Shown: positions 26,975 to 40,449 of the stretch, piece after piece
Layout: every line of letters starts with the position of its first letter
Numbering within the stretch: position 1 is the first letter of the stretch
NCBI GenBank assembly: GCA_043823745.1
Contig: JBDRAN010000044.1
Coordinates: 853-64,852 of the forward strand
Length of the DNA: 64,000 nucleotides
Reading direction: 5' to 3'
From: Candidatus Omnitrophota bacterium
Lineage (GTDB): Bacteria > Omnitrophota > Gorgyraeia > Duberdicusellales > 4484-171
Position numbers and translations under genes: made by a program
The notes under the pieces: generated by a model
Database searches by the model: none
Seen by the model: the letters and a program-made list of their open reading frames with translations, nothing else
What the model was told of the DNA's origin: nothing

Positions 26975-28867
26975 TTATCCTTTAGAGCCACTTACCGCAA
27001 ACAATAATTTTTTTGCTTGTTCTTCATCGTAACGAAGGCCGCTGTCACAGACTGCACGTATCTGCTCTAAGATCCCTTCAAGTTTCATGCTTTCTTCCAC
27101 CTTAAAAATTTTATTAAACGTGGTGGTTATTTTCTTTTCGCGATTACTGAATAGTTCTTCCGATGTTTTTTCTCCCTCGCGTTTTCCTATATACACAATA
27201 TCGTCCTCTTTAAGGTGTTTACCATAAAAAAGGGCAATATCATACGCCAAATCTTTTATTTTTACAGGATTACCCATGTCAAGGACCAATATTTCTCCTC
27301 CTTCTCCTGAAGAAATCGCTTGCAGCGTTAACCTTGTTGCCTCGGCCAAACTCATAAAATACCTATTCATCTGAGGGTCGGTAATGGTTAAACGCTCTCC
27401 TTTTTGAAGCTGTTGAGCAAATATCTCGATCACATTGCCGGAAGAACCGATGACATTACCGAATCGTACCGCCATGAATTTTGTTTTCGTTTCTGCATTA
27501 CCACTGAATATTTTTACTAAAAGCTCCCCTGTTCTCTTTGTCGCACCCATAAGCGAAGTTGCGTTAACTGCTTTATCGGTCGAAATATAGCCGAATTTTT
27601 TTACACCAAACTCTTGCGCACATTGCATCATGTTAAGCGTCCCACATACGTTTGTTACTATTGCTTCAATCGGATTATACTCGCACAAAGAGACATGCTT
27701 GAGGGCGGCGGCATGAATGACATAATCGACGGTATGGGCGGTGAATATCCTATCCAGCGCCCGTCTATTCCTGATGTCGGCTATCTTGCAAAGTATTTCT
27801 GTATCCTCCGGGTCAGGCATATCGCCCTGGTGCGTTACGTCATAGGAAATCCTAAAGAGGTTGGTCTCCGATATATCCAATATGACTAATTTACGGGGAG
27901 AAAACTTAAGTAGCTCTTTGCATATGCTTGCGCCTATAGAACCGCCGCCGCCGGTAACCATAATAGTTTTGCCGTAAAAAACATCTCGTATCTTTTCGGT
28001 ATCAAACGTAACCGGTTTCCTATCTAAATAATCTTCGAATTTTATCTCGCGTAAGCTCTTTAAGGTAAACCTGCCATCAACCAAATCAACCATTGAGGGG
28101 GCAATCCTCACCAACGCACCGGTGGCTTGAGAAATCTTGATGATTTGTTTCATTTCTTCATTAGACGCATTATCCACGGCAATAAAAATATAGCGTATGC
28201 CCTTTTCTTGGACTAGCGACGGTATATCGCCAATCGTGCCGACAATGGACGTGGCGTTAATCGTCTCCCCCACACGGTTTTTGTGAAACGTGATGAAACC
28301 CGTCACTCTGAAACGATGACTGTCGTTCTTCAAAATAGTATATTGAAGAGATGCTGCGATATCTTGGTCTCCCACAATCAATACGTTTTCTCTCGTTTTA
28401 CTCAAGCGTTTTACTTTATCAAAAATAATTCGGTACGAAAGCCGCACACCGCTTAAACTCAAAAATAAAATAAAGAGGTTAACAATATAAACTGACCGTG
28501 GAATCTCTATGATAGCGCCGTGCAGCAGCATAAAAGCAACACAAATGCTGAGTCCGTTGCTCACCAAGACTAAAACGCCCGTCCGCTCTATGTCGCGCAA
28601 GCTCGCGTACCTCCATATCCCTTTTGCTAAACCAAAAAAGTAATCGCAGAAAAGAAAACAAACCACAAAGATGAAAATAGTTTTCTTGAATACGGCAAAA
28701 TCATCGGGAGGAACGGCGCCTTCAAACCGTATAAGATACGCAAGCCAGTAACTTGCAACAACCAGCGTCACATCAACGCAATACTTCACCCACAAGAGAA
28801 TCTTATTGAAAGGCGCAAGAAAATTATCGAAACTTATTGTTTTATGATTTTCCATCGAATCACTCAT
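26975..28867 (-). CDS. Membrane-bound UDP-N-acetylglucosamine 4,6-dehydratase (CapD/WbpM/PglF family).
   Basis: Four N-terminal TM helices are followed by the MVTGGGGSIGASICKEL Rossmann motif, typical of CapD/PglF. Confidence 0.85.
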   Translation of the reverse strand: MSDSMENHKTISFDNFLAPFNKILLWVKYCVDVTLVVASYWLAYLIRFEGAVPPDDFAVFKKTIFIFVVCFLFCDYFFGLAKGIWRYASLRDIERTGVLVLVSNGLSICVAFMLLHGAIIEIPRSVYIVNLFILFLSLSGVRLSYRIIFDKVKRLSKTRENVLIVGDQDIAASLQYTILKNDSHRFRVTGFITFHKNRVGETINATSIVGTIGDIPSLVQEKGIRYIFIAVDNASNEEMKQIIKISQATGALVRIAPSMVDLVDGRFTLKSLREIKFEDYLDRKPVTFDTEKIRDVFYGKTIMVTGGGGSIGASICKELLKFSPRKLVILDISETNLFRISYDVTHQGDMPDPEDTEILCKIADIRNRRALDRIFTAHTVDYVIHAAALKHVSLCEYNPIEAIVTNVCGTLNMMQCAQEFGVKKFGYISTDKAVNATSLMGATKRTGELLVKIFSGNAETKTKFMAVRFGNVIGSSGNVIEIFAQQLQKGERLTITDPQMNRYFMSLAEATRLTLQAISSGEGGEILVLDMGNPVKIKDLAYDIALFYGKHLKEDDIVYIGKREGEKTSEELFSNREKKITTTFNKIFKVEESMKLEGILEQIRAVCDSGLRYDEEQAKKLLFAVSGSKG

Positions 28868-29444
28868 TGAGCGTCCCTCCTATGGTCCTTAAGATAATAC
28901 TCAGGTCATCGATAAGATTGGTGCGGCCGCGAAAATACTCTAAATCATATTTAATTTTTCGAGGCAAAACCTCGTTCAAATAAAATTCCATAAGTTCCTT
29001 CTTTTCCAGAAGCCGCTCTTCATGCAGAAATTTTACGGTTGCAAAGGAAGTAAACCCGGGCCTAAAACATAATATTTCCCGCTGCCATGGCGCATAGTGC
29101 ATAACGAGTTCGGGTATTTCCGGCCGCGGACCGACAACGCTCATATCACCCTTTACAATATTAATAAATTGAGGAAGTTCGTCAAAATTGGTCCTTCGCA
29201 ACAGCTTTCCTGCCCTACTGATACGTGCATCGCCGGCGGCAGTAATGAGGCTCCCTGTTGCCATCTTCATAGTCCGGAATTTAAGGATCATGAAAATGCG
29301 CCCATTCTTGCCGACCCTGCGTTGTTTAAAAATAATCGGGCCGGGCGAATCTACTTTTATCATTACTGCGGCAATGATAAATATTGGGAAGGAAAAAAAT
29401 AAAACAACCAGTGAAAAAACAATATCGAATATTCGCTTTGCCAT
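28860..29444 (-). CDS. Small undecaprenyl-phosphate sugar phosphotransferase (PglC/WbaP C-terminal-domain type). It is the initiating transferase.
   Basis: MAKRIFDIVFSLVVLFFSFPIFIIAAVMIKVDSPGPIIFKQRRVGKNGRIFMILKFRTM is the hallmark bacterial sugar transferase motif. 194 aa. Confidence 0.85.
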   Translation of the reverse strand: MAKRIFDIVFSLVVLFFSFPIFIIAAVMIKVDSPGPIIFKQRRVGKNGRIFMILKFRTMKMATGSLITAAGDARISRAGKLLRRTNFDELPQFINIVKGDMSVVGPRPEIPELVMHYAPWQREILCFRPGFTSFATVKFLHEERLLEKKELMEFYLNEVLPRKIKYDLEYFRGRTNLIDDLSIILRTIGGTLNE

Positions 29445-29632
29445 TGAGAAACCTTATGTCTTTTTTTTCGTAAAGGATACCTCGCTCTCGAGTAACTCTC
29501 GCTTATTGCGAGTGCACAAAGTCTTAATTTCATTATAAAGCTTCGGGGTCCTCTCCGGTATAAACACAGGGAAATGCACGGAAAAACCCGCATACCGGGA
29601 ATCGCGTAAAAAATGCTCAAACGTAGGTATAA

Positions 29633-30325
29633 TCATTTTTGTATTACCGTTATGTAGTGTGACCGTAACAATGATATTTTTTCTAACATGTAACATAGCC
29701 TATACGACAGGGGCCCGAGGAACCGGGCCAGCGTAGGTATGAGCGTTAACGCCGTAAAAGAGAGGCGTGTATAACCGCTGAAATACTTCCGAACTAACTG
29801 TTTCGTCAAAGCCCGCACGAAAGGATTAAAAAGGTTGGGGTACCGAACATCGTAAATGATGATTAAACCCCCGGTTTTTAAAACGCGCATTGCTTCACCG
29901 GCGATCTTCTTCGCCATTGAATCATCAAGAATGGAACTAAATACCGTAAAGATGATGATCATGTCAAAAGAGAAATCAGGAAACTCCAGATGTTCTGCGT
30001 CAGCGCAATAAAAGGTAAACGCCGGGTAACGGCTCCGTGCGTCCTCGATTCTCTCGGGAATAAGATCAACACCGTATAGATTTTCTGGTTTGGCGCCCCA
30101 GGTGAGAAATCCGGCTAACGTAGTCCCGCCGCCGCAGCCTATATCAAGAATCTTTCTATCGTGAATCGGAAAAAATCCCTCGTGTTTTAAAATTTCGACC
30201 AGTACCTCCTCCCTTCTGGAAAAGATATATTTATTACCGCTAAGCTCTCCGTCCCATTGGGCTCTACAAACCTTGCTGGCACGATAGCGCTGATAAACAC
30301 TTTTTATGCGATTGGCTTCATCCAT
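29633..30325 (-). CDS. Class I SAM-dependent methyltransferase.
   Basis: Motif I is ILDIGCGGGTTLAG. Confidence 0.75.
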   Translation of the reverse strand: MDEANRIKSVYQRYRASKVCRAQWDGELSGNKYIFSRREEVLVEILKHEGFFPIHDRKILDIGCGGGTTLAGFLTWGAKPENLYGVDLIPERIEDARSRYPAFTFYCADAEHLEFPDFSFDMIIIFTVFSSILDDSMAKKIAGEAMRVLKTGGLIIIYDVRYPNLFNPFVRALTKQLVRKYFSGYTRLSFTALTLIPTLARFLGPLSYRLCYMLEKISLLRSHYITVIQK

Positions 30326-30400
30326 GCGTCACCCCGTCCCGAATTGCTCGAAACCCATTTGACCCTACCTGCATAAATGCCCCATGATATTCATACTCTT

Positions 30401-31795
30401 CTAACGGCCAACCCATTTTGTATACCAAAATACTAAAAATCTCCTTACGGCGGGAAAATTTTTTGTTTTTATATAGAGCGCCCTGATGATTGCTCCGGCA
30501 ATCTTGCTATGAAAACGCATGCCCATAATTTCCGTCGTTGCTTTATCGAGAACGTTGTAATCGATGCCTTTTATTTTCGGTTTGTTCGGAGCGGTTGTAA
30601 GATCGTTGTCGTCTTTGAGCAATGATAAACCATGCGCCACACAATACTCGTACAGATCGCTTCCCGGCATGGGCGTATAATATGAAACGCTGACAATGTC
30701 CGGCTTGATTGCCCTCACCATGTTGACAGTTTTATCGACATCTTCTTTGGTCTCGGTGGGCGCGCCTAACATGATATTTGCTACCGTTCTTACCTTGTAT
30801 TTTTTGCAGATTGCTACCGATGCGATATTTTGCTCGACGGTTGTACCTTTTTGTAAGAAATTCAGCATCTTTTGACTCCCGCTTTCGAGCCCGATAATCA
30901 CCATCGTTAAGCCTATCTCTGAAAGCATACGTATGGCATGTTCGTTTGCGCAAATCTGATCGGCGCGGGCCTGACAGAGAAAGGCAGCTGTAAAGCCTTG
31001 TTCTCGATACTTATGGCAAAACTCTTCGACCCATCCGGGGTTAGAAACAAACGAATAATCATAGAACTTAAAGCTCCTGAAATCATAACGATCCCGCAGC
31101 ATTCGTAGTTCTCCAATCACATTGTCGACGCTGCGATACCTGACACCTTTACCAAAGAGCAACCGACCGCCCGGTTGACAAAAATTGCAATTATACAAAC
31201 AACCGCGGCTTGCCAGCAGCGTTACCATCGGTGCCTTAAATATACCAGAATAATTAGGACGGTTGATTATGGTGCGATACGGATATAATTCCCGATCCTC
31301 GTATGGTAGAGAATCGAGATCCGGAGCAATCCCTCGCATAAGCCTCTCTTTTCCACGGCCCCTGCTCGCTATATCATTCAGCAAGGCAACAAAACTTATC
31401 TCTCCTTCACCGGTCACAATATAATCGATCATGCTTTGCCGCACAACATCCTCAGTCGCTATGGTTGGGTGGACACCGCCGACCACGACGATAATACGCT
31501 CATCAATAGCTTTGACGATTTCAATGGCTCGCATAACAAAACTATAATCGTAACTTCGTATGGTAAAACCTATAACATCGGGGTGGCGCACGGTGAGTGC
31601 TTCTTGGAACGCTTTCCAGCTGCGTAGCTTCCTTACGTCAATAAGGTCACAATCGCCGAATCCATCTGCCTTGGCGCACGCACTCAAAAAGCATAAACCT
31701 TCGTGGTTGATGCTGGTCCAATGTGAGCTGCCGAAGGATCCAAAACTCTTTTCTCCCAGGCCAGGGTCAACGAGCGTAATCTTTAAGTGCTTCAT
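30401..31795 (-). CDS. B12-binding-domain radical SAM protein (class B rSAM). The start is revised to the internal Met.
   Basis: CLYNCNFC is a Cx3Cx2C motif. The N-terminus MKHLKITLVDPG is typical of cobalamin-binding rSAMs. The longer ORF-track start would overlap the next gene by 154 nt. Confidence 0.75.
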   Translation of the reverse strand: MKHLKITLVDPGLGEKSFGSFGSSHWTSINHEGLCFLSACAKADGFGDCDLIDVRKLRSWKAFQEALTVRHPDVIGFTIRSYDYSFVMRAIEIVKAIDERIIVVVGGVHPTIATEDVVRQSMIDYIVTGEGEISFVALLNDIASRGRGKERLMRGIAPDLDSLPYEDRELYPYRTIINRPNYSGIFKAPMVTLLASRGCLYNCNFCQPGGRLLFGKGVRYRSVDNVIGELRMLRDRYDFRSFKFYDYSFVSNPGWVEEFCHKYREQGFTAAFLCQARADQICANEHAIRMLSEIGLTMVIIGLESGSQKMLNFLQKGTTVEQNIASVAICKKYKVRTVANIMLGAPTETKEDVDKTVNMVRAIKPDIVSVSYYTPMPGSDLYEYCVAHGLSLLKDDNDLTTAPNKPKIKGIDYNVLDKATTEIMGMRFHSKIAGAIIRALYIKTKNFPAVRRFLVFWYTKWVGR

Positions 31796-31821
31796 CGAAT
31801 ATATTCTACCACCATGGTATG

Positions 31822-32892
31822 CTACAAAGCACCCGTCGTATGGGTCTGATGGGGCTTGTTGTTTCTTCTGAATCGCCACAAGCCCGTCAAGAATCCAAGC
31901 CCGTAACTTATATGAATAATAGTGAAAACAAAAGGCAGAAAAAACAGCGTAAACGGCAAGCGGCGTGCAACCCACGCACTGAAGATTACATTAAGCACAA
32001 GGTAGGGGCACCCTACAATCAACGCTAAGAAGTTATTCCTTGTCACCAGGCCTACAAGAAAGCTTGCAAGAAGCGCGGCCACAAACAGCGGCGGCACGAT
32101 ATGCCGGAATGAGGGGATTGCATTTCGTTTTTGTATTACACGCACCTTATAAAAACCGTATTGAAAGTATTGCCTCCAGAGGCGCGCCAAGGTACTACGG
32201 CTATAGTAGCGCACCGAAAGCGCCGGGTCGAACCAAATTTTTCCTCCTGCCTGAATAAGCCGAAAATTAAATTCATCGTCCTGATTACGAACAAGCTCCT
32301 CATCAAACATGCCTATCCGCTCGAAAATTACCCGCTGGTACGTGCCCAGATATACCGTATCAACCCATCCGGGTTTGGTTGCATAACGAAAATATGCATT
32401 CCCTGCCCCGAATGGAGAACTGGTAGCCAAAGCAATGGCCTTGCCCACCGTAGTCTCGCTCACCGCGCATTGCATCCCTCCTACGCAATCTGCCCCGGTA
32501 TGTGCTAATAAATCAACACACCGGCGAATGTAGGCACTCGGGATTTCGCAGTGCCCGTCGACACGAACCATAATTGCCCCTTGGGCGTACGCCAAACCGA
32601 TATTAAGCGCTGCGGGCACGATACGAGAAGGGTTATCGAGGAGCGCGATGCGCAGGCGCATGTTGTTTTTGCTCTCGCGATCGATGATTGTTTGTACGAT
32701 TTGCCTGGTTCCATCATCAGACATCCCGTCTACAACAATAACCTCGATTTTTTCTTTCGGATAATCCTGCCGCAGAACCGCGCTGATACTGCGCTCGATA
32801 TATTGCTGTTCGTTACGAATGGGCACGATTACCGAAACACCGGGCTGAGGGGAAGAAAAACTTGACTCTCTACCTTGTGTACTATCAATCAT
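31822..32892 (-). CDS. GT2 glycosyltransferase with C-terminal TM helices (GtrB/ArnC/DPM1-like polyprenyl-phosphate glycosyltransferase).
   Basis: VSVIVPIRNE...VVDGMSDDGT GT2 core, plus two C-terminal hydrophobic helices as in ArnC/GtrB. Confidence 0.65.
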   Translation of the reverse strand: MIDSTQGRESSFSSPQPGVSVIVPIRNEQQYIERSISAVLRQDYPKEKIEVIVVDGMSDDGTRQIVQTIIDRESKNNMRLRIALLDNPSRIVPAALNIGLAYAQGAIMVRVDGHCEIPSAYIRRCVDLLAHTGADCVGGMQCAVSETTVGKAIALATSSPFGAGNAYFRYATKPGWVDTVYLGTYQRVIFERIGMFDEELVRNQDDEFNFRLIQAGGKIWFDPALSVRYYSRSTLARLWRQYFQYGFYKVRVIQKRNAIPSFRHIVPPLFVAALLASFLVGLVTRNNFLALIVGCPYLVLNVIFSAWVARRLPFTLFFLPFVFTIIHISYGLGFLTGLWRFRRNNKPHQTHTTGAL

Positions 32893-32959
32893 AGCGCCTC
32901 AGACATACCATACGGTTTCTCGGCATACAGGGCCGAATGCATCATAAACAATACTAAAG

Positions 32960-33988
32960 TTAAGGCTTACGCGCGAGCGGTTTTCCCTCACGGCAGACTT
33001 GTTCGACCAGATCACACAACGCCTGTTTTCGTGCCGCAAACGAAAAGAGTTCTTTCACTCTTTCTTGTGCCAGAGCGCCTGTCTGCGTATCATCTAAAGC
33101 CTTTATGATGGCGCGCGACAGCTCGCCTGCGTCGTCATACGGCACATAGTAACCGGCCTGACCCACCACTTCAGGAAGCGCTGATGTTGAGGTTACCACG
33201 GGCACGCACCTATGCGCCATAGCCTCAGCGAGAGAGCGCCCGAACTGTTCATGATATGATACCTGGACATATACTGTCGCCCGGGAATAAAACTGGCATA
33301 ACACTTCATTGCTCACCCGGCCGGTTATAATTACATTGTCGGTCACTGAGCCCTGCAGATACCGTGCCATTCGCTTATCAAGGTAACCAACCATAAAAAA
33401 TTTTATTTCCGGAAGCATCGCGGCAGCTTTGATAAACGTTGCCAGCCCTTTCCTTTTCAGATTATTCTCTATGATGTTACCTACGGTTAACACGCTACGC
33501 TCTTTTTTGATATTTTCTGCTCCGCCGCAAGAACACAAGGGAATGCCCTGGTATATCATAGAAATCCTATCGGAAGGAATCTTGCAATTTGTGATAATCT
33601 CTCGCTTGTTGAATTCAGAAACCGCAATAATCCTGTCTGCCAGCGTTATGATGTATCGCGTGATCGCCCTGGTTGGAAAAAACCTCAATCCCTTTCTAAA
33701 CGCTCCATAATTGATTTCAGGCGCGTTTACGCAATCCCACCCGCCGACAACTAAAATTATTTTCTTTTTAAAAAATTTTGCGAACAACAGCGGTATCAAC
33801 GCCGACCGAGACGCAAACCAGCAGAATACGGCATCAACGTTTCGTATGCTGCCTATCCCGCGGGGAATCTTAAAAAACGTATCTTTATAGAAACGTAAAT
33901 CTTCGGCGCAAAAATTATTCTTAAGTATTTCCCAATCGTTTTCTTCGAAACCGGTCCAACCTTGATGCAAAAATAAAATCTTCTTCAT
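32960..33988 (-). CDS. GT4 (GT-B fold) glycosyltransferase.
   Basis: EQFGRSLAEAMAHRCVPVVTSTSALPEVVG is an EX7E-type C-terminal motif. Confidence 0.75.
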   Translation of the reverse strand: MKKILFLHQGWTGFEENDWEILKNNFCAEDLRFYKDTFFKIPRGIGSIRNVDAVFCWFASRSALIPLLFAKFFKKKIILVVGGWDCVNAPEINYGAFRKGLRFFPTRAITRYIITLADRIIAVSEFNKREIITNCKIPSDRISMIYQGIPLCSCGGAENIKKERSVLTVGNIIENNLKRKGLATFIKAAAMLPEIKFFMVGYLDKRMARYLQGSVTDNVIITGRVSNEVLCQFYSRATVYVQVSYHEQFGRSLAEAMAHRCVPVVTSTSALPEVVGQAGYYVPYDDAGELSRAIIKALDDTQTGALAQERVKELFSFAARKQALCDLVEQVCREGKPLARKP

Positions 33989-34018
33989 ACTATACCTGAC
34001 TAAGCCCGTATGGCCCTG

Positions 34019-35221
34019 TTATTTCAAAATGGACTTTACCGCCGCGATAACATCTTCCACGTCAGAAGCGGTAAGCTTGGCGGAAAGAGGAAGCGACAGG
34101 GTTGTATCGGAGACATATTCAGCATTGGGAAAGTCTCCTTTCTTATAGCCGAAATTGTGTTGATAATACGGGCTTAAATGAAGCGCCGTAAAATGAATAC
34201 CGGTGCCGATATTACGTTTATGCAGGCGCTGCTGCATTTCATCGCGCGATATACCCGTAACAGTTTTAGGCACCAGTATCGTGTATAAATGCCGGGCATG
34301 CACCGTATCTCCCTCAACAGGGGCAGGCAGCGTAATCGACAGGCCGGCAAACGCTACGTTGTATCGCTTCCAAATCTTCTCTCTCTTTTTTAAATAGTTC
34401 CCGATTCGTTTAAGCTGATGTATCCCCAAGGAGGCCTGAATATCCATCATATTGTATTTAAAACCCGGGTAAACGACCTGGTACTTGACATGTCCTTTGT
34501 CCGAATACCGATGCCATGCCCCCTTAGACATCCCATGCAAGCCATACATTTCGATACGCTGCGCAAACTCTCTATTATCGGTGGTTACCATTCCTCCTTC
34601 TCCGGTCACTAAATTTTTGGTGGCATAAAAACTAAAACACGTAAGGTCTCCGATAGTTCCGACTTTACGATTCTTATATACACCCTCAATGCAATGCGCG
34701 GCATCTTCAATGACATAGAGATTATATTTCCGCGCGATTGCACGTATCTGCTTCATGTCGCAGGGCCTGCCCGCAAAATGCACAGGGACAATTGCACGCA
34801 GGTGCTTATGCGTTTCTTTATTAACAGGGGAGCCTGTCTTATGGTCAATATAATAATCGCGCTCAATGCACTCATTGATTTTTTGCGGCGATAGATTAAA
34901 CGTCTGGGCATCAACATCAACAAAAACAGGCCGGGCGCCCGTATGTATGATGCTGTTGGCGGTTGCACAGAACGTCAGGGGCGTCGTGATAACTTCGTCA
35001 CCGGGGCCTATTCCAATAGCTACCATTGAGAGATGCAGGCCCGCAGTACAGGAATTAAGCGCCAGGGCGAATTTTGACCCGATGTATTCTCGAAACATTT
35101 CTTCAAAACGATGCACTTTGGGGCCTGTTGATAGCCACCCCGAACGCAACGTAGCCACCACCTCTTTGATCTCTGCTTCCTCGATGCGTGGTGCCCCAAA
35201 AAGTAAAAAATTTTTACGCAT
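34019..35221 (-). CDS. DegT/DnrJ/EryC1/StrS-family sugar aminotransferase (PglE/WbpE-like).
   Basis: FSFYATKNLVTGEGGMVTTD contains the PLP-lysine region. Length 400 aa. Confidence 0.85.
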   Translation of the reverse strand: MRKNFLLFGAPRIEEAEIKEVVATLRSGWLSTGPKVHRFEEMFREYIGSKFALALNSCTAGLHLSMVAIGIGPGDEVITTPLTFCATANSIIHTGARPVFVDVDAQTFNLSPQKINECIERDYYIDHKTGSPVNKETHKHLRAIVPVHFAGRPCDMKQIRAIARKYNLYVIEDAAHCIEGVYKNRKVGTIGDLTCFSFYATKNLVTGEGGMVTTDNREFAQRIEMYGLHGMSKGAWHRYSDKGHVKYQVVYPGFKYNMMDIQASLGIHQLKRIGNYLKKREKIWKRYNVAFAGLSITLPAPVEGDTVHARHLYTILVPKTVTGISRDEMQQRLHKRNIGTGIHFTALHLSPYYQHNFGYKKGDFPNAEYVSDTTLSLPLSAKLTASDVEDVIAAVKSILK

Positions 35222-35307
35222 AAGTTTCTCCTTTATCGTTGATATTGGTGCAATAACCTCATGCCCGTCGCGCCGGGGCGCTCAACAAAGAAATAAACAT
35301 AATCGGC

Positions 35308-36705
35308 TCAGAGACGCTCTTGGGAAGCAGGGTCATTCTCGTTAATCGCAATGACCTCCGCTTCTTCCTCAGGCAAACGCGCCAGCACAAACCCTATTGC
35401 CAGCATAAACCAAAAGGGGACGTAGACTTCCGGAAGGTTAAGATAGCTTTCGATAAAAAATGAGAAGAAAAAACCAAAGAGGCTCGCAAACACCCCTACT
35501 CGATATTCTGCTAATTCGGGATCGCGGGTGCTCCGTATGGATTTACGTAATCGATTGAGAATTTTTATATAAAAGATCATAAATAAAAGTGAGGTAAGAA
35601 TGCCATTGTCGGATGCAAATTGAATAATATCGCTATGAACAAGGCCGCTGCCGGCTAGTCCAATGCCGACAAACGGATGCTCCCTGATGAGCACTAAAGC
35701 TCCTTGCATACGCTCGCGCCGTATGTACGCGCTGGTTCCTACGGCGGATTCCGGATCAAGACCTCTGATGCGGTATTCGATAAACGGAGCAGCAAAATGG
35801 TATGCCATCAATATGAGGCCCAAAAGGATAGTCACTTCCTTCTTCCCCCGATAAAAACTATAGGCCATGAGCCCGGCTAAGACTGCAATCCATATCCCTC
35901 GATAACCCGAAAAAAATATAAATGCGATACAGGAGAGAAATGAAAAAACCATAAAGAACCGTAGAAAACTTGATTTCCTGAAGATATTAAAAAACGAGAT
36001 AATTAAAGGTAAAATCAATGCAAGATATCCGGCAAGCATCGGTCCTCCCCAAAAAGTAGCGGATGCGCGCATAGGCCCGGCTTCTCCCTCTTGCATGATC
36101 GTACCGCCGTACCAGCCTGATAAAAGCGGTATTCGTATCCCGACGTATTCAGCCATTCCCAGCAACGAGTTCAAGAATGCGGTAACAATCAGCACAAAAA
36201 ATATCTTTCTGACGATACCAATATCTTTTACCAAAGCATGTACCACATAAAAAATAGGAAAAGCGCATACTAACAAAATCCCGTATGCGATAGCAAAATT
36301 CATATTCAGGCGGTTCAAGAACGCGGTCACCAGGCCAAACAGTACGCCCAGCAGATAAAGATATCCTGAGGGAAGAAACCACCGTACAAGCGCTCCCGAT
36401 GGTCGTTTTTGAAATATCAAAAGCAATAAAAATAAATATGCGCAAAGAGCAAGGGCGGGGCTAATCCGTATAGCCTGGCCAATATAGATTGTCCGTTGCC
36501 CCAACATAAACATGGCAACACATAAGTAAAGCAGGCTCACAAACGTTTTCTCCTGGGCTTTAACAAATGAAATGAAAATAGCCATACCGATAAAAGCGAT
36601 AATCAAAAATTCTCCCTTGCTAGAAATAGAAAATGCGAAGAAAAGCAGAAGCATGCTGAGGTTGAATAGAAGAGATACCCAGTGAATCTTAATAGGCTTT
36701 TTCAT
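35308..36705 (-). CDS. O-antigen ligase family (Wzy_C domain) membrane protein, WaaL- or PglL-like.
   Basis: 465 aa with about 12 TM helices and a large loop containing conserved R/H residues typical of Wzy_C. Confidence 0.65.
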   Translation of the reverse strand: MKKPIKIHWVSLLFNLSMLLLFFAFSISSKGEFLIIAFIGMAIFISFVKAQEKTFVSLLYLCVAMFMLGQRTIYIGQAIRISPALALCAYLFLLLLIFQKRPSGALVRWFLPSGYLYLLGVLFGLVTAFLNRLNMNFAIAYGILLVCAFPIFYVVHALVKDIGIVRKIFFVLIVTAFLNSLLGMAEYVGIRIPLLSGWYGGTIMQEGEAGPMRASATFWGGPMLAGYLALILPLIISFFNIFRKSSFLRFFMVFSFLSCIAFIFFSGYRGIWIAVLAGLMAYSFYRGKKEVTILLGLILMAYHFAAPFIEYRIRGLDPESAVGTSAYIRRERMQGALVLIREHPFVGIGLAGSGLVHSDIIQFASDNGILTSLLFMIFYIKILNRLRKSIRSTRDPELAEYRVGVFASLFGFFFSFFIESYLNLPEVYVPFWFMLAIGFVLARLPEEEAEVIAINENDPASQERL

Positions 36706-36709
36706 ATTC

Positions 36710-37492
36710 TCATCCTTTTATGCATAACAAATCTTTATAGACAAGAAATTTATTCACGGCGACAAAAAGAGCCCATAACCAACCGCGCCAGCCGTCAATA
36801 AATCCTTTCTTGATGAATAATAGATATATAAAGACACTGCACGGGTATGTGAGAAGCTGATGGGGTTTTATCCTTCGGCCTTCCTGTTTACGCTGAAGAT
36901 ATTCGAGGCGCCGGTATCTGCTCAACTTTTTCCTGATTGTCTCCCAATCCTCAAAACCATAATGCAATACATGTCCCTGCAGCTGCCCGATATTTCCTTC
37001 AACCATTAACTTTTCATGTATCCACGCTCCATTGTATCGGAATTTTTTCTTAAAAAGTCTGATCCTGTTATCAGGATATAAATCGGCGCCCCGCATCCAC
37101 CGGCCCAAAATATGGTTTCGTGTCGGCGTTTTAAAAGCCTCGCACGCACTATCGCCACGGGGCATGATTGCGTTAAGTTCAGACATTAGCTCTTCCGTCA
37201 CGATTTCATCGCTATCAATTTGCAATACCCACTCATTACTGCAGTGTGCTATTGCCCAATTGCGCTGCGTTGAAGGAGATTCGTGTTTATAATAATAAAC
37301 TGCATTGGTATATTCCCGGCAGATGGCAACGGTGTTATCCGAACTAAAACTATCGCACACAACGATTTCCCGAAAGCCCTTAACGCTTGCGAGGCATCGC
37401 CTGATGATCTTCTCATTGTTACAGGTAAGTATAAGTACCGATACGTTATGCATTGCGAATATGACAAAATACGTTCTGTGACTGTGCAGCAT
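36710..37492 (-). CDS. GT2 glycosyltransferase.
   Basis: VSVLILTCNNEKII...CDSFSSDNT GT2 motifs. The true start may be the internal MHNVSV. Confidence 0.7.
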   Translation of the reverse strand: MLHSHRTYFVIFAMHNVSVLILTCNNEKIIRRCLASVKGFREIVVCDSFSSDNTVAICREYTNAVYYYKHESPSTQRNWAIAHCSNEWVLQIDSDEIVTEELMSELNAIMPRGDSACEAFKTPTRNHILGRWMRGADLYPDNRIRLFKKKFRYNGAWIHEKLMVEGNIGQLQGHVLHYGFEDWETIRKKLSRYRRLEYLQRKQEGRRIKPHQLLTYPCSVFIYLLFIKKGFIDGWRGWLWALFVAVNKFLVYKDLLCIKG

Positions 37493-38654
37493 ATTTTTCT
37501 AGAGAGAAGAACTCATTCGCCCTTCGATGCGCATTGCGCCCCATGCGTTTCATTAAGCCCTCATCGCCGATAAAAGTTTCGATGGCCGCGGCAAGCGCGC
37601 TTGGTTGCCCCGGCGGAACCACTATCCCCGAATCAACGTTGATTAATTCGCTTGTCCCCGGAACGCTGGTGGCAACGATAGCCTTCTCCATAGCCATGGC
37701 ATAAATAAGCGTCAAGGGGCAGCCTTCCGGTTCTATCGAAGAATGAACGAATATGTCAATGGCCGCCAACACGCGCGGCAAATCTTCCCGAAAACCCAAC
37801 AAGATAATATCAGTTTCCAAATGTAATTTCTTTATTTCTTCGATAATTAACTCTTTGCATCGAGAGGTTTCAAATATGGTGCCGCCGACTAAAAAAAATT
37901 TAACCCCGGGATGCCTATCCTGTATTATACGAGCGGCCCTAATAAAATCGAGCTGGCCCTTCCAATAGGTAAAACGAGCGATGTGTGCGATAACGATCTG
38001 TTTTTCAATAATACTGAATTCGCTGCGTACGGACTGACGGTCTGCTGTTTCCGGGTTAAATATATCGAGGGGTATCCCGTTGTAAACAAGGGAAATTTTC
38101 TTCCATAAAAATTTATAAAATTGTTCCCGTATCGCTCCGGAACCAACGATAACATGCTCCACGAAGAAATACACCCACATATTGACGCACCAGCGTACCA
38201 CTCCGCATGCTCTGCGTTTATCAATAATTTCCTGCATATCCCATATACACGATGCGGCAACCCCCATGCATGCCAGGCTACCATAAAAATTTGCCATAAG
38301 GCCTTTGGTGCAGACAATCATAAATTTTTCTTTGCGCAGGAAACGGTGATATCGAATCGCGGCATATATAACGGCGAGAAAATTATAGGCAAGCGCAAAC
38401 GGGTTGAACACAATATATTTTTCTCCAAATTGGAAACTCGTAGAAAAAAACCTCGGCCGGGACACGATGCAGTACGGCAGCCGAGCCTGCCTGCATTTTT
38501 CGGTCAGTTTGCCTTCACGCGGGCATATAAACGTGATGGGGAATGTGCTCCGATCGACTCTTTCTGCCAATGCCAGGCTGTTATATTCGATGCCTGCCAT
38601 CTCAGATTCTTGCATCAGGAAAGCGATAGATATCTTTTCGATTATGGTGCTCAT
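37446..38654 (-). CDS. GT4 glycosyltransferase. The start is revised to Met28, which removes a 77-nt overlap.
   Basis: C-terminal GT4 motifs are present (EGCPLTLIYAMAMEKAIVATSVPGTSELI). The ATG at 38654 abuts the stop of the upstream acetyltransferase gene. Confidence 0.7.
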   Translation of the reverse strand: MSTIIEKISIAFLMQESEMAGIEYNSLALAERVDRSTFPITFICPREGKLTEKCRQARLPYCIVSRPRFFSTSFQFGEKYIVFNPFALAYNFLAVIYAAIRYHRFLRKEKFMIVCTKGLMANFYGSLACMGVAASCIWDMQEIIDKRRACGVVRWCVNMWVYFFVEHVIVGSGAIREQFYKFLWKKISLVYNGIPLDIFNPETADRQSVRSEFSIIEKQIVIAHIARFTYWKGQLDFIRAARIIQDRHPGVKFFLVGGTIFETSRCKELIIEEIKKLHLETDIILLGFREDLPRVLAAIDIFVHSSIEPEGCPLTLIYAMAMEKAIVATSVPGTSELINVDSGIVVPPGQPSALAAAIETFIGDEGLMKRMGRNAHRRANEFFSLEKYAAQSQNVFCHIRNA

Positions 38655-38658
38655 TGGC

Positions 38659-39228
38659 TTATTGTTCAAGGCGACGCAACGGCCGTGCAGGCACCCCACC
38701 GACAACGGTATTCTCCGGAACGTCTTTATTAACAAAACTCATAGCAGCCACCAAGGATCTTTTTCCGATGGTAACCCTGCTTTTTATGATTGACCCTGCA
38801 CCTATATATGCATCGTCTTCAATAAGAAGGGGCGCCCGTGCCGGCGGCAAAACGTTGTGTATGCTGCTTTTGCCGGCGTCAAAATGGGTAAGAAGGGTTG
38901 TCCTCATGCCGATAACGACGCGATTACCGATCTTTATTTTGTCCGTAATATCTAAAAACACATCTCTTCCTACATACGCATCATCACCGATTTCCAAGTT
39001 GGCGAAATTATTTTTTGCGTTATGTATTATAAGGGGTGTATGTATCGCAACATTGTTACCGATCGTGGCGCCATATTTTCTTAACGCGGGGACGATAAGG
39101 GACGGAGGGATAAAATAAAAAAGAGCGTTAACGCCATCAAGCTTATAAATTCTATAAGCGATACACAGGAGGCCTTTAAAAAAGAAGGTCATCAAATATT
39201 TCAAGTACGACTTTTTTTCCGTATACAT
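38659..39228 (-). CDS. Hexapeptide-repeat (LbH) sugar N-acetyltransferase (PglD/WbbJ-like).
   Basis: Repeated [LIV]G-x4 hexapeptides are present (IGDDAYVGRDVFL, IGNRVVIGMRTTL). Confidence 0.75.
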   Translation of the reverse strand: MYTEKKSYLKYLMTFFFKGLLCIAYRIYKLDGVNALFYFIPPSLIVPALRKYGATIGNNVAIHTPLIIHNAKNNFANLEIGDDAYVGRDVFLDITDKIKIGNRVVIGMRTTLLTHFDAGKSSIHNVLPPARAPLLIEDDAYIGAGSIIKSRVTIGKRSLVAAMSFVNKDVPENTVVGGVPARPLRRLEQ

Positions 39229-39240
39229 ATCCCCTCCTTT

Positions 39241-40449
39241 TTATTGTTCATATGTCGTATTGCTCCCGGTATCCGGTTGATTTTCTTTTTCTGGCGCATC
39301 CGGTGTTCCTTGAAAAATATGTACGTACCGCGCCGCCATTGCGGTTGCGGTAAAACGGGAAAGAGAACGAGTTGCATTCTGAACCATCGTGTTCCGTAGT
39401 GCCGTATCCTTAAGCAACGTTATTAGTGCCTCAGCCAAGGCTTGAGAGTCATCGTTTTCTACCAAGAGGCCGCTTACGCCATGCTCGATTATTTCCTCGG
39501 GTCCTCCGGAACGGGTTGCGACTACTGTCTTGCCGACGGCAAAGGCTTCAATGATGGTTAAATTAAATGTCTCGTGGCGCGAAGACACAACGACAAACTC
39601 ACATCCGTTCAATAATTGTACTACCTGTGCAGCATTCGCTCTACCAACGAAATGAATCCGGTCGTTAAGGCCCAGCCGATTCACGAGGTGATGCAGAATA
39701 ATTTCGTCTTCCCCTTCGCCGGCGATGATAAGATCAATATGAGGATTAGACCGCGCCACACGGGTAAAGGCCTCAATGAGTACATCTAAGCCTTTATTAT
39801 GGGTAAATCGTGCGTAGGCAAGAAGATATGGCCGCGCATGCACGTACGGCGCCTTATCGTGAAAGGCTTCGGGTTCGATGCCATTATACGTCACGTATGC
39901 TTTATGGGCGACCACGGGATATAATTGGAGAGCGTTCTTCAAAAGAAAATCAGAACAAGCCGTAATAGCGTCTGCGGCGTCAAGAATATTCCTGAGAGCT
40001 ACGATGTTCCTGCCCCTGCGGTGCGCCAAGTAGAATCGTGCAATCTCATCGCCATGCAAGGAGACGATTAGTTTGAATTTTATTTTTTTGTGCGCCTGGA
40101 GCACAAAAGGAATCTGCGCATCGGGAAAATGAATATTAACAACGTCGGGCTTAAAATTCTGTATAAGCATCGTCAATCGGGAAAGCGTCTGGGGATAAAA
40201 ATACCAAGACGCCGCAAAAAGGTCAATACGGCCGTTGAGCAGGTGTCGAAAATCCGGCGATAGAAAAAGCAACCGCGATACCGGCACCCCTTCGATGACT
40301 TCATGCTGCGGCAGAGAACGTGGGTAACGATTAGTCACTACTTCGACGACATGCCCCTGATGCATCAAGGCGCGCGCTAATGTATGCGCTGCATTTTGCA
40401 GGCCACCGAGCACAGGGAGGTATGACGCTGTAAGTATGAAAATACGCAT
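39241..40449 (-). CDS. GT4 glycosyltransferase.
   Basis: ETFNLTIIEAFAVGKTVVATRSGGPEEII is a typical GT4 C-terminal motif. Confidence 0.75.
   Translation of the reverse strand: MRIFILTASYLPVLGGLQNAAHTLARALMHQGHVVEVVTNRYPRSLPQHEVIEGVPVSRLLFLSPDFRHLLNGRIDLFAASWYFYPQTLSRLTMLIQNFKPDVVNIHFPDAQIPFVLQAHKKIKFKLIVSLHGDEIARFYLAHRRGRNIVALRNILDAADAITACSDFLLKNALQLYPVVAHKAYVTYNGIEPEAFHDKAPYVHARPYLLAYARFTHNKGLDVLIEAFTRVARSNPHIDLIIAGEGEDEIILHHLVNRLGLNDRIHFVGRANAAQVVQLLNGCEFVVVSSRHETFNLTIIEAFAVGKTVVATRSGGPEEIIEHGVSGLLVENDDSQALAEALITLLKDTALRNTMVQNATRSLSRFTATAMAARYVHIFQGTPDAPEKENQPDTGSNTTYEQ

What the first reader, a model, noticed from the sequence alone, without database searches (positions are those of the whole stretch)
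26975..39228. Pgl/Wbp-like diacetamido- or acetamido-amino-dideoxyhexose pathway next to a Wzy_C-family ligase: O-antigen locus or general protein glycosylation system?
The window holds a CapD/PglF-type membrane dehydratase (26975-28867), a small PglC-type phosphoglycosyltransferase (28860-29444), a DegT aminotransferase (34019-35221) and a hexapeptide acetyltransferase (38659-39228). Together these reconstitute the canonical route to bacillosamine, QuiNAc4NAc or FucNAc-type sugars on Und-P. Immediately beside the aminotransferase is an O-antigen-ligase-family (Wzy_C) protein (35308-36705). In Neisseria, Acinetobacter and others, the Wzy_C protein PglL is an O-oligosaccharyltransferase acting on proteins. 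Three GT9 enzymes further downstream instead point towards an LPS-core-like acceptor. The sequence alone cannot decide between the two outcomes.
Basis: partly seen in the sequence, partly recalled or inferred. Interest (0 to 1): 0.55.

Follow-up and report, generated by a model that had tools for sequence, protein, structure and literature searches.

The report
Surface-glycan cassette with WaaL-like ligase
This stretch of an uncultured Omnitrophota genome is a conserved gene cassette that builds an amino-sugar-primed surface glycan and carries a divergent WaaL-like transferase; it sits in a 50-kb polysaccharide export locus, so it is an elaborate but ordinary cell-envelope glycan locus with nothing specific to protein glycosylation.

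Summary
All five genes exist at the stated coordinates, and three GT9 genes are present. The window comes from a Candidatus Omnitrophota MAG. The dehydratase is PglF-type and the phosphoglycosyltransferase is PglC-type. The aminotransferase is closer to ArnB than to PglE. The acetyltransferase resembles O-acetyltransferases, not PglD.

That locus holds a second Wzy_C protein fused in operon to Wzc, a Wza exporter, an outer-membrane barrel, two PMT_2 GT-C enzymes and c-di-GMP parts.

The Wzy_C protein at 35308-36705 belongs to a divergent clade. Its model has the WaaL fold, and it keeps WaaL's Arg/Arg/His catalytic residues. It has no PglL_A or Wzy_C_2 signature. It travels with the same aminotransferase, glycosyltransferase and acetyltransferase genes in all nine related stretches of DNA (seven distinct contigs). 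One related locus carries a Wzm/Wzt transporter. No Wzx flippase appears in any of them.

My reading is that it transfers the undecaprenyl-diphosphate-linked glycan en bloc, most likely to a lipid or LPS-type acceptor (about 0.45). A Wzy polymerase role (about 0.3) and a protein O-oligosaccharyltransferase role (about 0.12) are not excluded. Interest is low to moderate.

The parts
26975..28867 (-). PglF/WbpM-type membrane-anchored UDP-HexNAc 4,6-dehydratase (630 aa; 3 predicted N-terminal TM segments)
   Evidence: Polysacc_synt_2 E 1.4e-99 plus CoA_binding_3. Best solved structure is C. jejuni PglF 5BJU at 226 bits, against PseB/FlaA1 at 128. Fused to the PGT in L012.
28860..29444 (-). Small monotopic PglC-type phosphoglycosyltransferase (194 aa); overlaps the dehydratase gene by 8 nt
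   Evidence: Bac_transf E 2.7e-53. Best solved structure is PglC 8E37/8G1N at 92 bits. One predicted TM segment.
29633..30325 (-). Class I SAM methyltransferase, kept in the cassette of relatives L011 and L012
   Evidence: Methyltransf_25/11. Orthologues at 36-39% identity in L011 and L012.
30401..31975 (-). B12-binding radical SAM enzyme; the likely true start is the ATG at 31795
   Evidence: B12-binding plus Radical_SAM. NCBIfam matches to HpnJ/BchE-like families are all below cutoff. Start codons listed.
31822..32892 (-). GT2 glycosyltransferase with 3 predicted C-terminal TM segments; possible polyprenyl-phosphate-sugar synthase feeding the GT-C enzymes (inferred)
   Evidence: Glycos_transf_2. 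TM prediction. Orthologues at 44-46% identity in L011 and L012.
32960..33988 (-). GT4 glycosyltransferase
   Evidence: Glycos_transf_1 / Glyco_trans_1_4. Orthologues in L001 (56%) and L011 (42%).
34019..35221 (-). DegT-family sugar 4-aminotransferase, almost always next to the Wzy_C gene in relatives
   Evidence: DegT E 1.6e-125. ArnB 1MDO 274 bits, PseC 144, PglE 107. Adjacent to the Wzy_C homologue in L001-L004, L010, L011, L015 and L016.
35308..36705 (-). Divergent Wzy_C / WaaL-fold (GT-C_B) membrane enzyme, 465 aa, about 12 TM helices. Conserved R71, R213, R269, R329 and H357. Called WzyC_A in this report.
   Evidence: Wzy_C 33.7 bits. Family profile against WaaL 7TPG gives E 1.5e-12 and aligns R269/R329/H357 with Arg191/Arg265/His313. 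AF2 model has pLDDT 85.7. Foldseek best hit is 7TPG, TM 0.59/0.67.
36710..37492 (-). GT2 glycosyltransferase (260 aa), core cassette member
   Evidence: Glycos_transf_2. Orthologues at 34-53% identity in L001, L011, L012 and L016.
37446..38654 (-). GT4 glycosyltransferase, core cassette member. The mechanical ORF runs to 38735; the ATG at 38654 is the likely start.
   Evidence: Glycos_transf_1. Start codons. Orthologues at 34-56% identity in L001, L011, L012 and L016.
38659..39228 (-). Left-handed beta-helix acetyltransferase; N- or O-acetylation unresolved
   Evidence: Hexapep. WcaF-family best hit in NCBIfam. 3ECT/Maa/LacA are the best structures, with no PglD. Directly follows DegT, start and stop overlapping, in L011.
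39241..40449 (-). GT4 glycosyltransferase, immediately upstream of the Wzy_C homologue in L010 and L011
   Evidence: 40-43% identity.
40456..43747 (-). Two tandem paralogous PMT_2 (GT-C_A, ArnT/PMT-like) membrane glycosyltransferases: 40456-42006 and 42194-43747
   Evidence: PMT_2 E 3.4e-11 and 1.7e-3. 8-9 predicted TM segments. 489 bits to each other. PMT_2/PMT proteins are present in L001, L010, L011 and L012.
43805..48258 (-). FAD oxidoreductase of the PRK07208 family, a PIG-L deacetylase fused to a methyltransferase, and a GT4. This is the 5' end of the cassette, before a 752-bp gap.
   Evidence: The oxidoreductase has a homologue in L010.
14185..23495 (-). Export module, in transcription order: TPR protein, PilZ, beta-barrel (BBP2_2), OPX Wza, PCP Wzc with tyrosine kinase, a second Wzy_C protein (15147-16445, start overlapping the wzc stop), and a TPR protein
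   Evidence: Wza matches TIGR03027 at 192 bits, above the cutoff of 180; the second Wzy_C also has the R/R/H residues. Promoter-like site at 23532-23504.
54312..63505 (-). Upstream module holding three GT9 enzymes (54312-55439, 59850-61091, 62264-63505), two GT2 enzymes and two B12-radical-SAM enzymes
   Evidence: All GT9 proteins score below the heptosyltransferase equivalog cutoffs.

Best explanation
The region is the oligosaccharide-assembly cassette of a large cell-surface glycan locus in an Omnitrophota bacterium. The proposed steps are as follows.
1. Inferred from homology: the PglF-type dehydratase and the DegT aminotransferase convert UDP-HexNAc into a UDP-4-amino-4,6-dideoxy-HexNAc. 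The beta-helix acetyltransferase may or may not acetylate it.
2. The PglC-type transferase loads this sugar onto undecaprenyl phosphate as the reducing-end sugar.
3. The GT4 and GT2 enzymes extend it on the cytoplasmic face.
4. The lipid-linked glycan is flipped by a component that is not identified in the window.
5. The Wzy_C protein at 35308-36705 acts like WaaL. R269 and R329 hold the diphosphate of the carrier. H357 activates an acceptor hydroxyl. The whole glycan is transferred with inversion at the amino sugar.
6. The most likely acceptor is a lipid-anchored core (LPS-type or another glycolipid) rather than a protein.
7. The PMT_2 GT-C enzymes add side residues in the periplasm from polyprenyl-phosphate sugars.
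8. The neighbouring Wzc/Wza/barrel module, with its own Wzy_C protein, polymerises and exports a high-molecular-weight form under c-di-GMP control.

What is shown: gene content, fold, conserved residues and conserved synteny. What is inferred: the sugar's identity, the acceptor, and the division of labour between the two Wzy_C proteins.
For: Fold and residues:
- The AF2 model (pLDDT 85.7, pTM 0.88) matches WaaL 7TPG best (E 4.7e-7; TM 0.59/0.67), followed by the SEDS proteins FtsW and RodA.
- The family profile hits 7TPG at E 1.5e-12. It aligns R269, R329 and H357 with Arg191, Arg265 and His313.
- PMC10920833 names those residues as the Und-PP binders and the acceptor activator. It also reports Asp or Glu at the His position in polymerase families of the same clan.
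- hhalign places R329 and H357 on E. coli WaaL R288 and H338.

Context:
- The same DegT, GT2, GT4 and acetyltransferase genes flank the homologue in all nine related stretches of DNA (seven distinct contigs), down to 28% identity. This fits an enzyme that acts on the amino-sugar reducing end.
- L011 has a GT2-ABC2 permease fusion and a Wzt_C-bearing ATPase in the same gene string. A polymerase is not needed in that kind of pathway.
- No Wzx was found in the window or in any related locus, by Pfam or by tblastn with three E. coli Wzx proteins.
- There is no Wzc or Wzz near the homologue in L001, L010, L011 or L012.
- In the window, the other Wzy_C gene is the one whose start overlaps the wzc stop codon.
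- The Wza and beta-barrel genes imply that the cell has an outer membrane.
Against: - The His-Asn/Ser-X9-Gly motif also occurs in pneumococcal beta-linking Wzy polymerases (PMC12502699), so His357 is not decisive.
- Being embedded in, and co-evolving with, a glycosyltransferase cassette is the classical position of wzy. Classical waaL genes usually sit with core genes.
- The protein has no NCBIfam match and scores only 13 bits against E. coli WaaL.
- The GT9 enzymes are not recognisable as WaaC or WaaF orthologues.
- No Kdo, heptose or lipid A genes lie in the window.
- Whether this genome makes lipid A could not be checked.
- The flippase is unidentified.
- A family member in a Burkholderiales MAG stands alone, outside any glycan locus.
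Confidence: 0.45

Rival explanations
1. The Wzy_C protein is the Wzy repeat-unit polymerase of this cassette. It joins flipped Und-PP-linked repeat units through a beta (inverting) linkage at the amino sugar. The polymer is then handled by Wzc and Wza.
For: - It sits among the glycosyltransferases that build the unit and co-varies with them across all related contigs. E. coli wcaD and wbbH are placed the same way.
- It diverges faster (28-30% identity) than its neighbours (34-55%).
- Wzy_C and the R...GxG / H-N-X9-G motifs are typical of beta-linking Wzy polymerases (PMC12502699).
- A PCP/OPX exporter lies in the same strand-continuous locus.
- L016 has a Wzc-like gene beside the cassette.
Against: - No Wzx is present in the window or in any related locus.
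- L011 pairs the homologue with a Wzm/Wzt-type ABC exporter.
- There is no PCP within 10 kb in L001, L010, L011 or L012.
- His, not Asp or Glu, occupies the acceptor-activating position.
- In the window, the other Wzy_C gene is the one coupled to wzc.
Confidence: 0.3
2. The Wzy_C protein is a new class of protein O-oligosaccharyltransferase. The cassette would then be a general protein O-glycosylation system of Omnitrophota. The PMT_2 enzymes might act as additional protein glycosyltransferases.
For: - Known O-oligosaccharyltransferases (PglL, TfpO, PglS, TfpM) share only the Wzy_C core and the same Arg/Arg/His residues (PMC3643930; PMC9829042).
- The cassette would make a short oligosaccharide primed with a bacillosamine-like sugar, as in the Neisseria and Campylobacter systems (knowledge of those pathways).
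- The Wzm/Wzt-plus-Wzy_C arrangement in L011 resembles S-layer glycosylation clusters (my own knowledge, not tested).
- PMT_2 enzymes recur in every longer locus.
Against: - PglL_A (PF15864) and Wzy_C_2 (PF11846) are absent at E<=10 from the protein and at E<=1 from its 18 closest relatives.
- It is 465 aa with no extra periplasmic domain.
- It is embedded in a polysaccharide locus, whereas PglL genes are typically outside such loci and next to a pilin-like target (PMC3643930).
- No pilin-like or S-layer candidate lies in the window.
- The exporter genes point to a secreted or anchored polysaccharide.
Confidence: 0.12
3. The Wzy_C protein ligates the finished glycan to a non-LPS envelope anchor, such as a diacylglycerol glycolipid or peptidoglycan. 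This would parallel the ligase-family proteins of Gram-positive bacteria.
For: - The GT121 ligase family is widespread outside LPS producers, and such acceptors have been proposed (PMC10920833).
- No lipid A or core genes lie in the window.
- The GT9 enzymes are atypical.
- The GT4 at 32960-33988 has weak matches to glycolipid-anchor glycosyltransferases, far below cutoff (NF053513, 47.7 bits against a cutoff of 460).
Against: - There is no positive evidence for any particular anchor.
- The organism has outer-membrane export parts.
- It belongs to the diderm PVC group, in which LPS is documented (PMC5945725).
Confidence: 0.1

Closest known systems
WaaL O-antigen ligase (CAZy GT121; Cupriavidus metallidurans WaaL, PDB 7TPG; E. 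coli WaaL)
   Same: - Same GT-C_B fold with about 12 TM helices.
- Same Arg/Arg/His positions.
- Matches the H-[NSQ]-X9-G-X2-[GTY] motif that I recall from the WaaL literature; the sequence reads HSDIIQFASDNGILT.
   Different: - Sequence similarity is confined to the C-terminal half (E 1.5e-12, and only with a family profile).
- No NCBIfam match.
- Embedded in a glycosyltransferase cassette rather than next to recognisable core genes.
- Extra near-invariant R71 and R213 in the N-terminal periplasmic loops.
PglL / TfpO / PglS / TfpM protein O-oligosaccharyltransferases
   Same: The Wzy_C core and the equivalent Arg/Arg/His residues (PMC3643930). The donor is an Und-PP-linked glycan.
   Different: - No PglL_A or Wzy_C_2 domain.
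- No pilin-like neighbour.
- Lies inside a polysaccharide locus.
- Shorter than PglL, with no C-terminal periplasmic domain.
Inverting (beta-linking) Wzy polymerases that carry Wzy_C (CAZy GT125-129; pneumococcal type-B Wzy)
   Same: Position inside the repeat-unit gene cassette. R-X17-GxG and H-S-X9-G motifs like GN1 and GN2.
   Different: - His instead of the Asp/Glu reported for those CAZy families.
- No Wzx partner in any locus.
- One orthologous locus uses an ABC exporter.
Campylobacter/Neisseria diNAcBac route (PglF, PglE, PglD, PglC)
   Same: A PglF-type dehydratase (226 bits to 5BJU) and a PglC-type small PGT (92 bits to 8E37), translationally coupled here and fused in L012.
   Different: - The aminotransferase is ArnB/perosamine-synthase-like rather than PglE-like.
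- No PglD/NeuD-type N-acetyltransferase.
- No PglB.
- A 2-acetamido-4-amino (AAT/Bac2Ac-type) sugar is an equally good prediction (inference).
Hyper-variable polysaccharide cassettes of Omnitrophota (bioRxiv 10.64898/2026.05.20.726742 and 10.64898/2026.06.07.730766)
   Same: Same phylum and the same kind of content: Wzc, 'O-antigen ligase', heptosyltransferase-II-like GT9 and many glycosyltransferases.
   Different: Those reports are at annotation level only. This window lacks AlgI/AlgJ and an LPS-exporter gene, and adds radical SAM and PMT_2 enzymes.
PCP-OPX-beta-barrel (Wzc-Wza-Wzp) secretion systems of Myxococcus xanthus
   Same: Adjacent genes for a Wzc-type PCP, an OPX protein and an outer-membrane beta-barrel (PMC12819527).
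   Different: The OPX protein here is 460 aa with three SLBB domains, and its class was not determined. No Wzx or Wzb was found in the window.

Membership tests
PglL-type O-oligosaccharyltransferase | Wzy_C (PF04932) core with the conserved Arg/Arg/His residues | tested here: met
   Wzy_C 33.7 bits. R269, R329 and H357 align to the WaaL residues, which Schulz et al. equate with PglL R224, R298 and H349. This feature is shared with WaaL, so it does not discriminate.
PglL-type O-oligosaccharyltransferase | PglL_A motif (PF15864), the HMM built to separate PglL from WaaL | tested here: not met
   No hit at E<=10 for the protein or for P0002-P0004. No hit at E<=1 in any of the 19 closest family members.
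PglL-type O-oligosaccharyltransferase | Wzy_C_2 (PF11846) C-terminal domain | tested here: not met
   The model shows only a short C-terminal tail after the last TM helix.
PglL-type O-oligosaccharyltransferase | Located outside LPS/polysaccharide loci and next to a pilin-like target gene | tested here: not met
   Embedded between GT2 and DegT genes in the window and in all related contigs. No pilin-like ORF in the window.
PglL-type O-oligosaccharyltransferase | Demonstrated transfer of glycan to Ser/Thr of proteins | not testable with these tools
   Needs glycoproteomics or heterologous expression.
WaaL O-antigen ligase (GT121) | GT-C_B fold like 7TPG | tested here: met
   Foldseek best hit is 7TPG: E 4.7e-7, TM 0.59/0.67, 437 aligned columns, using a model with pLDDT 85.7.
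WaaL O-antigen ligase (GT121) | Two Und-PP-binding Arg residues and the acceptor-activating His (7TPG Arg191, Arg265, His313) | tested here: met
   Residue-by-residue alignment. E. coli R288 and H338 align. The residues are kept in 90% or more of the family.
WaaL O-antigen ligase (GT121) | Sequence membership in a curated ligase family | tested here: inconclusive
   No NCBIfam hit at E<=0.01. Pfam Wzy_C is only just above threshold. The profile gives 13 bits to E. coli WaaL but E 1.5e-12 to C. metallidurans WaaL. CAZy GT121 HMMs were not available.
WaaL O-antigen ligase (GT121) | Genome makes a lipid A-core acceptor (lpx, kds, waaA, heptosyltransferases I/II) | not testable with these tools
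   Only this 64-kb window of a 65-kb contig is held. The three GT9 proteins score 72-84 bits against cutoffs of 135-185. PVC bacteria are diderm and LPS is documented in Gemmata (PMC5945725), but nothing specific to Omnitrophota was found.
Wzy polymerase of a Wzx/Wzy-dependent pathway | Gene embedded in the repeat-unit glycosyltransferase cassette | tested here: met
Wzy polymerase of a Wzx/Wzy-dependent pathway | Cognate Wzx flippase in the locus | tested here: not met
   No Polysacc_synt or MurJ-type Pfam hit among the window ORFs or the ORFs of related loci that were scanned. tblastn with E. coli RfbX, WzxC and WzxE gave nothing at E<=1. Caveat: Wzx proteins are very diverse, and one 696-aa protein with 11 predicted TM segments is unassigned.
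Wzy polymerase of a Wzx/Wzy-dependent pathway | Co-polymerase (Wzz/Wzc) partner | tested here: inconclusive
   Wzc is present in the window, but it is 17 kb away and coupled to the other Wzy_C gene. It is absent within 10 kb in L001, L010, L011 and L012 and present next to L016.
Wzy polymerase of a Wzx/Wzy-dependent pathway | Asp/Glu at the position of the WaaL His (CAZy clan GT-C1 polymerase families) | tested here: not met
   H357 occupies the position, and it is His in 191 of 212 aligned sequences. Pneumococcal type-B Wzy motifs are nevertheless written with His, so this test is weak.
diNAcBac pathway (PglF/PglE/PglD/PglC) | PglF-type dehydratase and PglC-type PGT | tested here: met
   Supported by the gene fusion in L012.
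diNAcBac pathway (PglF/PglE/PglD/PglC) | PglD/NeuD-type 4-N-acetyltransferase | tested here: not met
   TIGR03570 matches only the last 47 residues (56 bits against a cutoff of 161). No PglD structure appears among 51 PDB hits, and the best are O-acetyltransferases. Its adjacency to DegT in L011 keeps an N-acetyltransferase role possible.

The most novel reading that the evidence does not exclude
The Wzy_C clade found here has only four members at 45% identity or more and lacks every PglL signature. It is always linked to an amino-sugar cassette and to PMT_2 GT-C enzymes. It could be the transferase of a previously unrecognised general protein O-glycosylation system, or of a system that builds a non-LPS envelope anchor, in ultra-small and possibly host-dependent Omnitrophota. 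If the 4-amino group stays free, the glycan would be amino-sugar-primed and possibly zwitterionic.
Probability: 0.1. Interest if true: 0.65.

Novelty: new member of a known kind. Interest (0 to 1): 0.3.

Why it matters
Omnitrophota are uncultured, mostly ultra-small bacteria whose surface chemistry is unknown. Recent preprints describe their polysaccharide cassettes as hyper-variable, possibly as a means of phage escape.

This work defines a conserved core: the Wzy_C enzyme with an aminotransferase, two glycosyltransferases and an acetyltransferase, primed by PglF- and PglC-type enzymes. It also shows that the Wzy_C enzyme keeps WaaL's catalytic residues. Together these give a concrete, testable handle on how these cells decorate their envelope.

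For glyco-engineering, a transferase that acts on a bacillosamine/AAT-type reducing end would be of some use.

In itself the locus is a normal kind of bacterial surface-glycan locus, so the wider significance is modest.

Tried and rejected
- Exact-sequence look-up of the window's Wzy_C protein found nothing on record.
- Word-indexed homologue searches returned only 4 close relatives, or generic Wzy_C proteins.
- The first AF2 run with 4 sequences was unusable (pLDDT 42). I replaced it with a 59-sequence alignment.
- phmmer of the single protein against the PDB found nothing. A family profile was needed.
The 9-sequence alignment gave 5 genome loci and 2 metagenome loci.
- The NCBIfam scan of the 131-member alignment exceeded the size limit.
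- Context look-ups for relatives of the second Wzy_C protein were uninformative or not on record. A Burkholderiales family member stands alone.
- hhalign against single E. coli sequences (WcaD, WbbH) gave no signal.
- The promoter/terminator scan was near chance apart from one site.
- The Rfam scan was empty, so there is no c-di-GMP riboswitch.
- Literature searches found no statement on lipid A in Omnitrophota.
- I rejected a Campylobacter-type N-glycosylation system because there is no PglB/STT3.
- I rejected an exosortase (PEP-CTERM) locus. No exosortase is present, and only the Wza protein passes an XrtA-system cutoff.
- I rejected a classical Arn pathway. There is no ArnA-like enzyme, although the aminotransferase is ArnB-like.

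Full report
**Source and layout**

The Wzy_C protein of the window is 100% identical to an NCBI protein annotated 'MAG: O-antigen ligase family protein [Candidatus Omnitrophota bacterium]' on a 65,204-bp contig. Every gene from 3286 to 64000 lies on the - strand. Pfam and NCBIfam scans of all ORFs of 150 aa or more show that 14185-63505 is one strand-continuous glycan locus of about 50 kb. It has four modules.
- 63505-49010: three GT9 enzymes, two GT2 enzymes, two B12-radical-SAM enzymes, an orphan protein with 11 predicted TM segments, and two SPASM radical SAM enzymes.
- 48258-26975: the cassette that the finding describes.
- 26810-23624: a geranylgeranyl-reductase-family protein, a HAMP-GGDEF protein and a small membrane protein.
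- 23495-14185: an export module. In transcription order it holds a TPR protein, a PilZ protein, a beta-barrel, the OPX Wza, the PCP/tyrosine kinase Wzc, a second Wzy_C protein and another TPR protein.

**Check of the observation**

- Dehydratase: the nearest solved structure is PglF, 5BJU, at 226 bits, against 128 bits for the inverting PseB type.
- 194-aa transferase: the nearest structure is PglC, 8E37, at 92 bits.
- Aminotransferase: ArnB scores 274 bits, well ahead of PseC (144) and PglE (107).
- Acetyltransferase: the nearest are Maa/LacA-type O-acetyltransferases (66 bits). The amino-sugar N-acetyltransferases QdtC and WlbB score about 35 bits, and PglD is absent.

The dehydratase, aminotransferase and priming steps are therefore well supported. 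The second acetamido group is not. A 2-acetamido-4-amino-trideoxyhexose is as good a prediction as a diacetamido sugar. The PGT and dehydratase genes overlap by 8 nt here and are fused into one 784-aa protein in the related locus L012. This ties the dehydratase product to the sugar that primes the lipid carrier.

The three GT9 genes are real. They are transcriptionally upstream of the cassette and score far below the curated cutoffs for LPS heptosyltransferases.

**The Wzy_C protein**

It is a weak Pfam match (33.7 bits against a cutoff of 31.7) and has no NCBIfam match. Word-indexed searches of 5.8 billion proteins found only three relatives, at 46-70% identity, from Omnitrophota or unassigned contigs. 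An exhaustive profile search found a wider family: 1219 representatives at E<=1e-3 and 39 at E<=1e-30.

In 131 full-length members, R71 and R269 are invariant. G69, R213, G220, G267, W272, S325, R329, P344, G347, G349, H357, G368 and W432 are at least 90% conserved.

The family profile matches the C-terminal half of C. metallidurans WaaL (7TPG) at E 1.5e-12. Counting along the printed alignment places R269 on Arg191, R329 on Arg265 and H357 on His313. Meitil et al. (PMC10920833) describe those residues as the two Und-PP-binding arginines and the proposed acceptor-activating histidine. hhalign puts R329 and H357 on E. coli WaaL R288 and H338, which Schulz et al. list as essential.

An AlphaFold2 model built with 59 homologues is confident (pLDDT 85.7, pTM 0.88). 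Its best match among solved structures is WaaL (E 4.7e-7, TM 0.59/0.67), followed by the SEDS polymerases FtsW and RodA.

**Test against PglL**

Schulz et al. built PglL_A (PF15864) specifically to separate PglL from WaaL. They also noted that pglL genes lie outside LPS loci, usually beside a pilin-like target. Neither Wzy_C protein of the window has PglL_A or Wzy_C_2, even at E<=10, and none of the 19 closest family members has them. The gene is embedded in a glycosyltransferase cassette, and no pilin-like gene is present. Membership of the PglL family is therefore not supported. A new class of O-oligosaccharyltransferase cannot be excluded from sequence, because the known classes share only the Wzy_C core.

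**Ligase or polymerase**

Pfam Wzy_C also covers most beta-linking Wzy polymerases, and their GN2 motif is written H-N-X9-G (PMC12502699). The domain and the histidine are therefore suggestive, not decisive. This holds even though Meitil et al. report Asp or Glu at that position in the polymerase families of the same clan.

Context gives more. I recovered nine stretches of DNA that encode relatives, on seven distinct contigs; two of the genome-collection loci duplicate contigs already held.
- L001/L002, L003 and L004: 46-70% identity.
- L010, L011 and L012: 28-31% identity.
- L015 and L016: 28-31% identity.

In all of them the homologue is flanked by orthologues of the same genes. These are DegT (44-73% identity, usually the very next gene), the 260-aa GT2, the GT4 at 37446-38654 and the acetyltransferase. 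The longer loci also carry the GT4 at 39241-40449, the membrane-anchored GT2, the methyltransferase and one or two PMT_2 GT-C enzymes.

This co-inheritance fits an enzyme whose chemistry takes place at the amino-sugar reducing end. It is compatible with all three roles.

Four points favour a ligase-type transferase.
- L011 carries a GT2-ABC2 permease fusion and an ATPase with a Wzt_C domain in the same gene string. That pathway type needs no polymerase.
- No Wzx was detected in the window or in any related locus.
- No co-polymerase lies within 10 kb in four of the longer loci.
- In the window, the other Wzy_C gene (15147-16445) is the one whose start overlaps the wzc stop codon. That makes it the better polymerase candidate. 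It also has the Arg/Arg/His pattern.

Four points count against the ligase reading.
- A position inside the cassette is classical for wzy.
- The protein diverges faster than its neighbours.
- L016 has a Wzc-like gene next to the cassette.
- The acceptor is unknown.

**Mechanism proposed**

The cassette makes a UDP-4-amino-4,6-dideoxy-HexNAc and primes undecaprenyl phosphate with it. Up to five cytoplasmic glycosyltransferases extend it. An unidentified component flips it. The Wzy_C protein then transfers the glycan en bloc with inversion. R269 and R329 sit on the diphosphate and H357 activates the acceptor hydroxyl.

The tandem PMT_2 enzymes probably add periplasmic side residues. They may be fed by the GT2 at 31822-32892, which has three predicted C-terminal TM segments. 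The export module resembles the PCP-OPX-porin systems described in Myxococcus. The adjacent GGDEF and PilZ proteins indicate that it handles a polymeric form under c-di-GMP control.

My probabilities for the role of the Wzy_C protein are:
- ligase to an LPS-type or other lipid core: about 0.45;
- polymerase: about 0.3;
- protein O-oligosaccharyltransferase: about 0.12;
- other anchor: about 0.1.

**Comparison with what is known, and novelty**

Two 2026 preprints already describe Omnitrophota polysaccharide cassettes with Wzc, 'O-antigen ligase', heptosyltransferase-II-like genes and many glycosyltransferases. They report these cassettes as hyper-variable between strains. The window is another such locus.

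What is added here is the conserved core around a divergent WaaL-fold enzyme, the failure of the PglL membership tests, and the corrected sugar pathway. Whether the genome makes lipid A could not be tested. The literature held here says only that PVC bacteria are diderm, with LPS shown in Gemmata. The window's Wza and beta-barrel genes imply an outer membrane.

I rate this as a new member of a known kind, of low to moderate interest.

Noticed in passing
window 15147-16445 (-), with 16445-18274, 18349-19731 and 19731-21074: There is a second Wzy_C protein (50.6 bits; it also has the Arg/Arg/His pattern 'YLHND'). Its start overlaps the stop codon of a Wzc-type tyrosine-kinase co-polymerase. Upstream lie an OPX Wza and an outer-membrane beta-barrel, and a 321-aa TPR protein follows at a 4-nt overlap. 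Fused Wzy_C-TPR proteins exist in other Omnitrophota (P0192).
   Followed up: partly
window 25695-26810 (-); L012 8954-9820: A geranylgeranyl-reductase-family protein (TIGR02032, 174.6 bits, above the cutoff of 158.8) lies directly downstream of the PglF-type gene. A UbiA prenyltransferase sits next to the Wzy_C homologue in L012. These may modify, or provide an alternative to, the polyprenyl carrier.
   Followed up: no
window 52202-54292 (-): A 696-aa protein with about 11 predicted TM segments has no Pfam or NCBIfam match and no homologue in the related loci. It is a candidate for the missing flippase, or for a further GT-C enzyme.
   Followed up: partly
window 49010-50062 (-) and 50157-52103 (-): Two SPASM-type radical SAM proteins sit in a glycan locus. 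In the 350-aa one, the SPASM-like match (residues 45-94) precedes the radical SAM core (135-289), which is an unusual order. The other protein is fused to a Methyltransf_24 domain.
   Followed up: no
window 30401-31975, 56667-58229, 58285-59769 (-): Three B12-binding radical SAM enzymes are interleaved with glycosyltransferases. All are below the cutoffs of named families. They may C-methylate or otherwise tailor sugars.
   Followed up: no
window 40456-42006 and 42194-43747 (-): Two PMT_2 GT-C genes are tandem paralogues (489 bits to each other). PMT_2/PMT proteins recur, one or two per locus, in L001, L010, L011 and L012.
   Followed up: partly
L011 1097-4053; L011 4050-5993; L012 18926-21277; contig of P0004: Relatives carry several gene fusions: GT2 with an ABC-2 permease (followed by a Wzt_C-bearing ATPase), GT4 with a polysaccharide deacetylase, PGT with the PglF dehydratase, and GT2 with PGT.
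   Followed up: partly
window 24348-25661, 21130-21711, 5433-7466 (-): A HAMP-GGDEF protein and two PilZ-domain proteins lie around the export module. This suggests c-di-GMP control. No riboswitch or any other Rfam family was found in the window.
   Followed up: partly
window 1-2000: GC content is 0.335, against about 0.45 in the rest of the window. The only ORF of 150 aa or more is on the + strand (17-817) and has no family match.
   Followed up: no
L013 2169-3608: A family member (22% identity) in a Burkholderiales MAG stands alone between sugar-catabolism and ABC-uptake genes, outside any glycan locus.
   Followed up: no
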